A stretch of 64,000 nt of DNA from Octopus vulgaris (taxonomy: Eukaryota): the NCBI GenBank assembly GCA_951406725.2, contig OX597837.1:20832001-20896000 (forward strand), given 5' to 3'. The position numbers were made by a program, and so were the translations under genes. Positions 18,363 through 53,612 of the stretch are shown piece after piece. The notes beneath the pieces are model-generated. The model saw only the letters and a list, made by a program, of their open reading frames with translations. It was not told the DNA's origin and did no database searches. The stretch's first letter is position 1, and each line of letters opens with the position of its first letter.

Positions 18363-19165
<803 letters not shown>

Positions 19166-29284: not shown

Positions 29285-31460
29285 TACAACAGGCTTCTTT
29301 GAGTTTCCGTCTACCAAATCCACTCACAAGGCTTTGGTCGGCCCGAGGCTATAGTAAAAGACACTCACCCAAGGTGCCACGCAGTGGGACTGAACCCGGA
29401 ACCATGTGGTTCGTAAGCAAGCTACTTACCACACAGCTATTCCTATGCCTGACTAGTGCATTAATGAGAAAAGTGTTAGGAAAAATGCCGAATTGGAAGG
29501 GCTCAGGTGCAGATTTAGTTCAGGGGTTCTGGCTAAAGAAACTTAGTAGTTTACATGTGATACTGAGAGAACAACTTCAGGATTGCCTTAATGGAGGAAT
29601 AATACCAGATTGGATGACTAGAGGGTTGCCAATACTCATTATGAAGGATAAAAGGAAGAGTAATATAGCTAGCAACTATAGACCAATCACTTGCTTACCA
29701 TTAGTGTGGAAGCTGTTAACAGGAATACTTTCAGGAAGCATTTACGAGTACCTTGAAAACCAGAATTGACTACCAAAAGAACAGAAAGGTTGCAGGAAGG
29801 CTAGAGGAATGCATGATCTATTATATATAGACAAAGCAGTTCTAAATGAAGTAAACGCTACAAAAGAAAAATTTAACAACAGTATGGATAGATTATAGGT
29901 AAGTCTATGACATGATCCCACACTATTGGGTAAGTAAATGCTTTAGTATATTCAGTATAGCAGACGACATAAGAGAATCAATTAGCTTTAGCGTGAAGAA
30001 ATGGAAAGTAGATCTATACTCAGGTGACACACCCTTAGGGATAGTTAATATCAAAAAAGGAATTATCCAGAGGGACTCATTGTCTCCTCTAATATTTGTC
30101 TTATGTTTGATCCCCGTCAGTTTAGTATTAAGGAAGGCAAAGGCAGGGTATTAGTTTAGAAATAGTAAGGGAAAAGTTAACCATTTGCTCTATATAGATG
30201 ATCTGAAGCTTTTTAGTAAGAATGAAAAAGAGATATATTCCTTAATACAAACTGTAAGACTCTTCAGCAAAGATATAGACATGGAATTTGGCATAGATAA
30301 GTACGCAATATTAGTCATGAGAAGGAGACAGATAGTCAACAGCGAAGGCATCCATTTATCAGATGACCAGACATTAAAATCATTGAAAGGAGGGGAGAAT
30401 TATAAGTATCTAGGTGTATTAGAATCCAACAGAGTACTAACAACAGAAATGGAAACGAAATTTGAGTGTGAGGAAGCTAATAAAGTCAAAGCTAAATGAT
30501 CTGAATCTAGTGAAGGCTGTAAATACTTGGACAGTATCATTACTTGGATACTCAGCAGCTTTTGTAGATTGGACAAAAACTGAATCACCAAAGCTGGACA
30601 GAAGAACTAGGAAGGAATTCGATATGAATGAAGGACTCCACCCAAGAGCAGGAATAGCACGAATATACCTACCTAGAAAGGAAGGCGGAAGAGGTTTGAT
30701 ATCAGTAGAAGACTGCGTGGAGTTAGGTAGAGTAGATATAGACTCCTATGTAGGTAATAGTAAAGACAGTTTATTAAAAGCTGCTAGAGTCACAGCAAGA
30801 CATAAGGAAACCAAAACACAAACGAAGTTAAAAACCAGAAAATAGAGCAGAAATTATCTGACTGGTAGAAGAAGCCGTTGCCCGTTAGATTCCCAAAGGT
30901 AGTTTCAGCAAATAGTAGTACTGAGACATGGTTATGGCGGCAGAAAGGAAAGCTAAAGAGGAAGACAGAAAGTATGTTGGTAACGGCACAAGATCAAGCA
31001 TTAAGGACTAATTGGATAAAGGCTAAGATAGACAAAAACCTAGTAGATACCCAATGTAGGTTTTGCAAATCAAAAGAAGAAAGCGCTACTCATATAGTAA
31101 GTGAATGCTGGCACGAAAAGAATACAAAAAAAGACATGACAACCTAGGGAGAGTAATCCACTGGGAGTTAGATAGAAAGCTAGTATTTGAACATACTGAT
31201 AAATGGTATGATCATGGATCTTGTAAAGTACTAGAAAGTAAGAAATACAAGATGTGGGACTTTAACATTTAGACTGACAGTGTAATAAAAGCTAGAAGAC
31301 TTGATTTGCTTGTAGTAGATAAAGAGTGCCAGATAATTGACTATACAGTCTCAAATGATGAAAAAATTAATGATAAATACGGAGAAAAAGCAAAGCATCA
31401 GGACCTAGTTATTGAATTACAGAGACTACGGAAAGAGCCGGTAAAATGGAAAAGACAGTG
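28650..31460 (+). pseudogene. Decayed R4/Dong-type LINE: RT, CCHC finger and RLE
   Basis: NYRPITCLPLVWKLLT, GIIQRDSLSPLIF, LYIDDLKLF, YKYLGV, IYLPRKEGGRGL, AQDQALRTN, CRFCKSKEESATHIVSEC; multiple stops and frameshifts. Confidence 0.92.
28979..29450 (-). mobile_element. SINE family A nested in the R4/Dong LINE
   Basis: Full family sequence interrupting the LINE reading frame. Confidence 0.9.
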
Positions 31461-48656: not shown

Positions 48657-49144
48657 CACACACACACACATACACACACACACACACATACACGGTAGGA
48701 AGCTTGCCAGTGTGCCTTGCAGTGGCCGAAGGGGTCACTGTATGGCACCTTGGGCAAGTGTCTTCTGCAATAACCTCGGGCCGACCAAAGCCTCGTGAAT
48801 GTGTCATACATTTTCAAATGTTTTTCTTACGTAAAAAGTTTCCCCACTATAATTTCCAAGGGTGTGCTGAAAAAAAAATTTGAAAAATCTCCGAGAGAAC
48901 GGAGAAAATGCAAATTATGTGAGCGTGTTAATTCGAAACTCCTTCATGCCATTCTGTGATGAAAATTGCCCGGTAACGACGAGATACTCAGCCAATGTGT
49001 ATGTGTGTGTGTGCAGGTATGTGTGGGTGAGTGCGCGCGCGCGTACACTCACATACATACATATATATGTGTATATATATATATATATACATAAATATAT
49101 ATATATACGTTATTATATATATACATTTATATATATATATATGT

Positions 49145-49348
49145 AGGTCCCGGGTTGAGTCGGGGTTAACCACAGTAAATAAGGTACTCAATACATGGCA
49201 GAGTAAATTAATTTATTTTATAGAAGGAGCTTCTACAGGACTAGAACTGTTTCATTCAAATGAAATCATCAGGAAATCATAGGCCAAGCTTCCTGATGAT
49301 TTCATTTGAATGAAACAGTTCTAGTCCTGTAGAAGCTCCTTCTATAAA

Positions 49349-49354
<6 letters not shown>
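49145..49354. mobile_element. (TA)n-flanked element with a 65-bp perfect inverted repeat carrying hammerhead cores on both strands
   Basis: Arms 49211-49275 and 49290-49354 with a 14-nt spacer. Confidence 0.85.
49287..49337 (+). ncRNA. Type I hammerhead ribozyme motif
   Basis: AGCTTC-CTGATGA-TTTCATTTGAAT-GAAACAG(TTCTAGTC)CTGT-A-GAAGCT; 6-bp stem I, 4-bp stem III, GUA site, weak stem II. Confidence 0.8.
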
Positions 49355-49419
<65 letters not shown>

Positions 49420-49646
49420 TATACATAGGGCTTTTTTCAGTTTCCGTCTACTAAATTCACTCACAAGGCTTTGGTCGGACCGAGGCTATAGTAGAAGACA
49501 TTTGCCCAAGGTGCCACGCAATGGAGCTGAGCCCGGAACCATGTAGTTAGTAAGCATGCTACTAACCACACAGCCGCTCCTGCGCCGGCACACACCCAAT
49601 TCTGCGCCTTCACACACCCAATTCTGCGCCTTCACACACCCAGTCG

Positions 49647-53358: not shown

Positions 53359-53612
53359 TACCTACATCTATATGTATATATACATGCATATATGGGTACA
53401 TGACATCAAAAAAGTCGGGGGGGGAGAAGTAAGAAAGAGGGAACAGTGAAGGGGAAAGGAGAAGAATAGAGGAGTGTGGGGGAGTTTTTCGTTGTTTGAA
53501 AAAAGTTCGTTTCCATGTTTTTGCTTTTATGTTTTCGTTTCTAATTATGTTCAAGGTTTTTTTGATGTCATGTACCCATATATGCATGTATATATACATA
53601 TAAATGTAGGTA
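53359..53612. repeat. ~55-bp inverted repeat (one mismatch) around a ~145-bp spacer
   Basis: TACCTACAT(C/T)TATATGTATATATACATGCATATATGGGTACATGACATCAAAAAA on both strands. Confidence 0.85.

What the first reader, a model, noticed from the sequence alone, without database searches (positions are those of the whole stretch)
49211..49354. Sense and antisense hammerheads in one perfect palindrome
The 65-bp arms place the same core on both strands. A transcript through both arms would form a long hairpin that sequesters the ribozyme, whereas one starting in the spacer could fold and cleave. Only the plus copy keeps the 6-bp stem I because the inversion breakpoint cuts the other.
Basis: partly seen in the sequence, partly recalled or inferred. 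Interest (0 to 1): 0.7.

Follow-up and report, generated by a model that had tools for sequence, protein, structure and literature searches.

The report
Back-to-back Penelope retroelement stub with hammerheads
The mirror-image sequence and its two hammerhead ribozyme motifs are really there, but they are the two short end pieces of a very common jumping gene joined back to back, a known footprint found hundreds of times in this genome and likely made by copying the element's RNA onto both cut DNA ends, not a purpose-built RNA switch.

Summary
The 65-bp arms are exact and each holds a type I hammerhead core. The insert is larger than reported (49143-49354): the minus arm has a 68-nt tail, and both ends sit in TA repeats. 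It is the end repeat (pLTR) of a Hydra-clade Penelope-like retrotransposon: 20 of 20 loci chosen for its reverse transcriptase carry the same repeat. The motif matches 5,726 times genome-wide; 666 loci are perfect palindromes centred on stem I, where both copies keep it. The one-sided stem I here is an accident of a slipped junction. Head-to-head pLTRs with one tail are published. Two regularities help with mechanism: exactly one tail per pair (40 of 40; 25 of 25), and arm 5' ends that pile up at the first base of stem I (15 of 86; none in the next 9 positions upstream). Both fit priming from both target strands on an RNA starting near stem I (inferred). Cleavage is untested, and a footprint of cleavage was inconclusive. 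This scan reported the same architecture and reading before, in this genome and in others.

The parts
49128..49142 (.). left target TA run (within a TA-rich stretch from about 49050)
   Evidence: sequence
49143..49210 (-). 68-nt tail of the pLTR, on this arm only; in full-length copies it runs on into the 5' leader and ORF
49211..49275 (-). left arm: pLTR end, hammerhead core from 49272, predicted cut between 49234 and 49233, stem I cut to about 4 pairs
49262..49282 (-). 11-nt tandem duplication of the start of the core at the junction; second copy lacks one C in the assembly, and one short-read contig has it
   Evidence: table 4, run X1, depth 49
49276..49289 (+). spacer; 49283-49289 is the element's own upstream sequence, belonging to the plus arm
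   Evidence: (L027, L028)
49287..49337 (+). complete type I hammerhead motif: stem I 6 bp, U-U plus 3-bp stem II, 4-bp stem III with 8-nt loop holding CTAG; predicted cut between 49331 and 49332
49290..49354 (+). right arm: pLTR end without tail, ending at the AT-rich inner site
49355..49427 (.). right target TA run
   Evidence: sequence

Best explanation
This is a stub insertion of a Hydra-clade Penelope-like retrotransposon: two short pieces of its hammerhead-bearing end repeat joined head to head in a TA repeat, likely made by the element's enzyme priming one DNA copy from each cut strand of the target. Shown: family identity, link to the RT-endonuclease ORF, TA target, one tail per pair, 5' ends clustered at stem I. 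Inferred: the endonuclease nicks both strands of the self-complementary TA run. One copy starts at the tail end and the other at the AT-rich inner site. Both usually run off at an RNA 5' end near the first base of stem I, and host end-joining fuses them, most often through the self-complementary AGCT there. At this locus the join slipped and duplicated 11 nt. The two hammerheads are passengers of that geometry.
For: Family: 40 scored candidates were 99-100% identical over 129-131 nt, and 30 of 30 fetched loci have an inverted partner arm. 20 of 20 loci fetched around RT hits carry the repeat at 91-98% identity. The window's own loop variant lies 2.8-3.9 kb downstream of ORF 3' ends in L153 and L157. 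The ORF has RWR, DKT, YRDD, CxCX5C, YIG, CxxC and CxH, the Hydra-clade motif set (PMC8557442), and the hammerhead has the U-U closing of stem II listed for many Hydra families. One-tail rule: 40 of 40 loci chosen on the centre alone and 25 of 25 pairs chosen on a 3' anchor (two are copies of each other). The tail-less arm is the longer, ORF-bearing one in L087, L088, L098, L102 and L157, while the tailed arm is longer in L084, L090, L097, L153 and L061; a single folded-back copy does not readily give both. Hotspot: 666 palindromes centred on the stem I 5' AGCT, against 15, 5 and 0 at three other self-complementary words. Biochemical precedent: an anole element cuts and extends both strands, starts at two sites flanking the tail, and is predicted to be a dimer (PMC11167929).
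Against: No experiment here shows priming on both strands. The arms of a pair nearly always belong to the same subfamily, which a fold-back also predicts. PMC11167929 saw no difference in start site between the strands in vitro, so it does not explain the strict one-tail rule, and it concerns another clade. Target-site duplications cannot be read in TA runs. What sets the RNA 5' end (start of transcription, nuclease boundary or enzyme stop) is not determined. One pair of 103 had no tail (L159), and L017 carries part of the tail on its short arm. Hydra membership rests on motifs; no tree was built.
Confidence: 0.75

Rival explanations
1. Self-priming fold-back: one copy (or an antisense template) turns back at a small palindrome and copies itself, as proposed for rotifer Penelopes.
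For: Published proposal from palindromes at inverted junctions (PMC3846280 passages). The commonest junction is a perfect palindrome. Arms share variants (L104, L121, L139). The short arm ends raggedly in AT-rich sequence (ends 60-72 in 39 of 40).
Against: Tail-less arms longer than their partners by up to kilobases, and by 10 nt at this locus. In subfamilies with TAG upstream only 4 bp are self-complementary, too short for a hairpin, yet they form the same centre. Some arms start at stem I with unrelated filler between them (L189). No two-tail palindrome in 40 of 40.
Confidence: 0.17
2. The 198-nt palindrome is a non-autonomous element copied as a unit from a few master copies.
For: 666 loci share one centre, and copies are nearly identical. 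Common descent would explain one tail per copy.
Against: The same centre occurs on several loop and core variants that also exist as long copies. Most sampled junctions are locus-specific. The one-tail rule also holds for pairs with other centres and kilobase interiors. This locus has a unique junction.
Confidence: 0.04
3. A functional switch: full read-through silences the ribozyme, and a transcript from the spacer cleaves.
For: Hairpin predicted. The plus motif is complete. Common variants between core positions +1 and +44 fall only in unpaired positions (5 of 13 against 0 of 31), so the fold is kept in source elements.
Against: Young, family-typical insertion with a junction accident. No promoter or transcript shown. 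Competing fold in this loop variant. The conservation belongs to the source elements, not to this copy.
Confidence: 0.03
4. Assembly or long-read artefact.
For: Palindromes next to microsatellites are error-prone. No listed short-read contig spans the whole stretch. The assembly may lack one base in the spacer.
Against: Hundreds of loci with distinct flanks and junctions, and fixed asymmetric ends that a chimeric read would not give. A short-read contig holds this spacer with one extra C (run X1, depth 49; it may be the source sample). Head-to-head joints at other centres occur in contigs of all 4 runs laid.
Confidence: 0.01

Closest known systems
Insertions of endonuclease-bearing Penelope-like elements with an inverted 5'-truncated pLTR and a tail at one end (PMC8557442 Fig. 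2 legend; PMC3846280)
   Same: Head-to-head pLTRs, tail on one arm, palindrome at the junction, microsatellite target, hammerhead in the pLTR. Pairs of hammerheads on opposite strands about 100-700 bp apart were noted in PMC4209133.
   Different: Tail is 68 nt rather than 30-40. The stub is reduced to the hammerhead and tail. The one-tail rule and the stem I pile-up are counted here, and I did not find such counts in the papers read.
Hydra clade of Penelope-like elements, including Hydra-1_Obim (PMC8557442 section and supplement)
   Same: C-terminal endonuclease, DKT, CxCX5C linker, CxxC and CxH, no CCHH, TA target, hammerhead with U-U closing stem II.
   Different: A different family from Hydra-1_Obim by eye (other hammerhead sequence, visibly divergent protein; identity not computed). 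RWR in place of RWK. Unit longer than the usual <3 kb because of a 2.6-3.9-kb simple-repeat 3' region.
Anole Poseidon element PAc (PMC11167929)
   Same: Two start sites flanking a tail, AT-rich target, both strands cut and extended.
   Different: Other clade. Its ORF starts inside the hammerhead, whereas here the first ATG of the long frame lies about 47 nt past the tail.
Twin priming of LINE-1 (recalled, not read)
   Same: Both target ends prime a copy, giving an inversion.
   Different: In LINE-1 the two pieces come from different parts of one RNA; here both arms copy the same end region.
Non-LTR retrozymes (bioRxiv 10.64898/2026.07.22.740005, part 1 of 5 read)
   Same: Type I hammerhead, derived from pLTRs.
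   Different: Retrozymes are head-to-tail tandem arrays; this is a head-to-head single insertion.

Membership tests
Endonuclease-bearing Penelope-like element | pLTR linked to one ORF with RT and GIY-YIG-type endonuclease | tested here: met
   20 of 20 RT loci carry the repeat; 722-aa frame in L083. Pfam gave no RT or GIY-YIG hit on three fragments, so the domain call rests on motifs read by eye.
Endonuclease-bearing Penelope-like element | direct or inverted pLTRs, with a tail often at one end | tested here: met
Endonuclease-bearing Penelope-like element | target-site duplication | not testable with these tools
   both flanks are TA runs
Hydra clade | DKT, CxCX5C linker, CxxC and CxH, no CCHH, C-terminal endonuclease | tested here: met
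   against the description
Hydra clade | RWK motif | tested here: inconclusive
   RWR at that place; Hydra-1_Obim has RWK
Hydra clade | insertion into (TA)n | tested here: met
Hydra clade | placement in an RT tree | not tested
   no reference sequences were held as data
Type I hammerhead ribozyme | core CUGANGA, GAAA, UH and three stems | tested here: met
   plus copy complete; minus copy with about 4 pairs in stem I
Type I hammerhead ribozyme | G10.1-C11.1 pair | tested here: not met
   U-U, as in many Hydra families in the supplement table; no G-C version of this motif in the genome; no Rfam hit
Type I hammerhead ribozyme | compensatory base changes | tested here: inconclusive
   stems nearly invariant in 284 arms, so conservation but no covariation
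Type I hammerhead ribozyme | self-cleavage | not testable with these tools
   genomic footprint test inconclusive
Non-LTR retrozyme | head-to-tail tandem units, each with a hammerhead | tested here: not met
   one head-to-head pair in the window

The most novel reading that the evidence does not exclude
These mini-palindromes are a genome-wide record of how Penelope-like elements integrate. [quoted passage not shown] The ribozyme would then act as a boundary that defines a roughly 140-nt template, apart from any cutting.
Probability: 0.25. Interest if true: 0.6.

Novelty: new member of a known kind. Interest (0 to 1): 0.3.

Why it matters
As a locus it is ordinary: one of hundreds of like stubs. 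As a family it bears on an open question, since the papers read call the origin of the inverted repeats and tail, and the role of the hammerhead, unresolved (PMC8557442). A young family with thousands of copies, a strict one-tail rule and a sharp 5' edge gives exact predictions for a reconstitution assay and for RNA end mapping. The scan has already raised these points on other DNA.

Tried and rejected
Cleavage footprint. I looked for arms that end at the predicted cut. Counted by eye: 36 junctions among 66 matches at the cut, 25 of 59 one base upstream, 6-7 of 45 three bases upstream, and about 35 among the first 100 of 166 one base downstream, with 21 matches in the reversed control. Five loci have both arms ending at the cut. 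But about 8 of the first 100 arms break 13-16 bases upstream of the cut, a denser spot, and only 1 of 86 sampled arms stops at +40. The result is inconclusive, and I do not count it as evidence of cleavage.

A G-C-closed stem II variant: 0 matches. Pfam on three ORF fragments: no relevant family. PDB sequence search of the ORF: 0. Rfam: 0.

RNA: no RNA holder listed on record. Four runs guessed to be RNA have contigs over the pLTR and ORF start of L083, but contigs show no start or strand; not used.

The script's own test of variable against structured positions gave p = 0.25, because positions -6 to 0 vary by junction truncation. The 5 of 13 against 0 of 31 split is after leaving those out, post hoc (p about 0.001, by hand).

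The 'tails' counter was faulty; I used the printed arm ends. A splice acceptor at the AG of stem I was considered and set aside, because the pile-up includes the AG.

Literature searches found no paper on twin priming in Penelope-like elements or on breakpoints at stem I. Most subscription papers are not searched, and I saw 1 of 59 parts plus search hits of the PMC8557442 supplement and no other supplements.

Full report
Observation. The arms 49211-49275 and 49290-49354 are exact reverse complements, 65 bp each, around a 14-nt spacer. The strand folds as one hairpin at -105.9 kcal/mol, z = -23. Each arm carries a type I hammerhead core, from 49293 on plus and 49272 on minus. The plus copy has stem I of 6 bp, a U-U pair plus 3 bp in stem II, and 4 bp in stem III. 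The minus copy keeps about 4 pairs of stem I; the hammerhead folds evaluate at -7.4 and -0.3 kcal/mol. Rfam finds nothing at its thresholds. The insert is larger than reported: the minus arm continues for 68 nt to 49143, and both ends lie in TA runs.

The spacer. Its last 7 nt match the upstream sequence of longer copies (L027, L028). The rest is a second copy of the 11 nt that begin the core on the minus strand, lacking one C. A short-read contig of run X1 has that C (depth 49), which makes the duplication perfect. So the minus arm begins at the core itself, was started twice, and owes its partial stem I to the duplication. The same call shows head-to-head joints at other centres in all 4 runs laid. 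X1 may be the source sample, and no listed contig spans the whole stretch.

Family. All 30 fetched best copies have an inverted partner. One long locus showed RT and endonuclease-like frames. Searching with that RT gave 150 scored matches, and 20 of 20 stretches fetched around a chosen subset carry the same repeat at 91-98% identity. The window's own loop variant is tied to ORF 3' ends in L153 and L157; most other copies of that variant fetched show no ORF piece within reach. The 722-aa frame of L083 has RWR, DKT, YRDD, CxCX5C, YIG, CxxC and CxH. These match the description of the Hydra clade (PMC8557442, section read), whose hammerheads often close stem II with U-U (supplement table). Pfam and PDB gave no supporting hit, and no tree was built.

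One tail per pair. Of 100 loci with the perfect centre, 50 were listed and I fetched 40; three already held and the last seven were left out. All 40 have one long arm (end 102-133) and one short arm (end 30-72). L017, one of those left out, has part of the tail on its short arm. In 60 loci taken in order along one contig on a 3' anchor (a filter that under-samples two subfamilies; two loci already held were skipped), 25 of 25 pairs have one tail, two being copies of each other. Over all loci held, 102 of 103 pairs have one tail and one has none; that set includes 30 loci found with a tail-bearing query. Either arm can be the long one: tail-less in L087, L088, L098, L102 and L157, tailed in L084, L090, L097, L153 and L061.

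Where the arms meet. Perfect palindromes centred on the AGCT of the stem I 5' strand number 666. Those centred on the AGCT of the 3' strand number 15, on the CTAG of loop III 5, and on a variant 6-bp word 0. The patterns differ in length, but not enough to matter at this ratio. Among 86 sampled arms, 15 start at -7 or -6 from the core (stem I begins at -6), none at -8 to -16, 17 reach -17 or beyond, and the other 54 start further in (ungapped extension can stop early at indels). So self-complementarity alone does not explain the hotspot; something ends the copies near the first base of stem I.

Mechanism. Shown: identity, target, one-tail rule, 5' edge. Inferred: both strands of the TA run are nicked and each primes a copy, one at the tail end and one at the inner AT-rich site; the copies run off near stem I and are joined, most often through AGCT. 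The anole element cuts and extends both strands, starts at two sites flanking the tail and is predicted to be a dimer (PMC11167929, parts 1-2 of 4 read), but it showed no strand difference in start site. The published alternative is self-priming (PMC3846280, passages). It fits the perfect centres and the matching subfamily of the two arms, but not tail-less arms longer than their partners or 4-bp centres. Whether the 5' edge is a transcription start, a nuclease boundary at the folded ribozyme or an enzyme stop is open.

The ribozyme. In 284 arms, common variants between +1 and +44 fall in 5 of 13 unpaired positions and 0 of 31 core or paired ones. This split is post hoc; with the junction-affected positions included the test gave p = 0.25. 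There are no compensatory changes. In this loop variant a competing hairpin takes the GAA of the core. Related motifs cleave weakly and as dimers (PMC4209133, parts 1-2 of 4 read) or only with protein, and cleavage was not needed for insertion in vitro. My search for copies ending at the cut site was inconclusive.

Comparison and verdict. Inverted truncated pLTRs with one tail, junction palindromes and opposite-strand hammerhead pairs are all in print. Seven literature searches found no count of the one-tail rule or of the stem I edge, within an open-access library. They are not independent support. Interest 0.3.

Noticed in passing
window 18084 (+), 33070 (-), 55416 (+), 5712 (+): Other hammerhead-like cores of different sequence; the first three have an extra base after CTGATGA and a plausible stem II. 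Probably ends of other Penelope-like families; none lies in a palindrome.
   Followed up: partly
window 53359-53413 and 53558-53612: A second inverted repeat, 55 bp at 98%, 144 nt apart.
   Followed up: no
window 30155-30842 (+) and 18504-18989 (-): Frames that look like fragments of another non-LTR retrotransposon (RT motif YIDD; recalled likeness, not searched).
   Followed up: no
L066-L067 (G000:C4:101016000-101034200): Nested structure: an outer head-to-head pair of the window's variant encloses an inner pair of a sister variant, plus an endonuclease frame of a more distant family (about 36-42% identity).
   Followed up: partly
L014, L017, L065, L192-L193: Complex or duplicated palindromes: doubled short arms, and whole palindromic units repeated 2.5-5.4 kb apart.
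   Followed up: no
G000:C2:62516262, C8:5403448, C9:105725221, C15:30116021, C21:25026204: Five loci where both arms end at the predicted hammerhead cut, with other letters (mostly AT-rich) following: candidates for copies of cleaved RNA.
   Followed up: partly
G000:C1:2604326, C1:112392610, C2:97271592: Palindromes whose two arms differ at a subfamily-diagnostic base: two templates or a later mutation; not fetched.
   Followed up: no
L189 (G000:C1:16309420-16310370): Both arms start at stem I (-4 and -6) with roughly 170 nt of other sequence between them.
   Followed up: no
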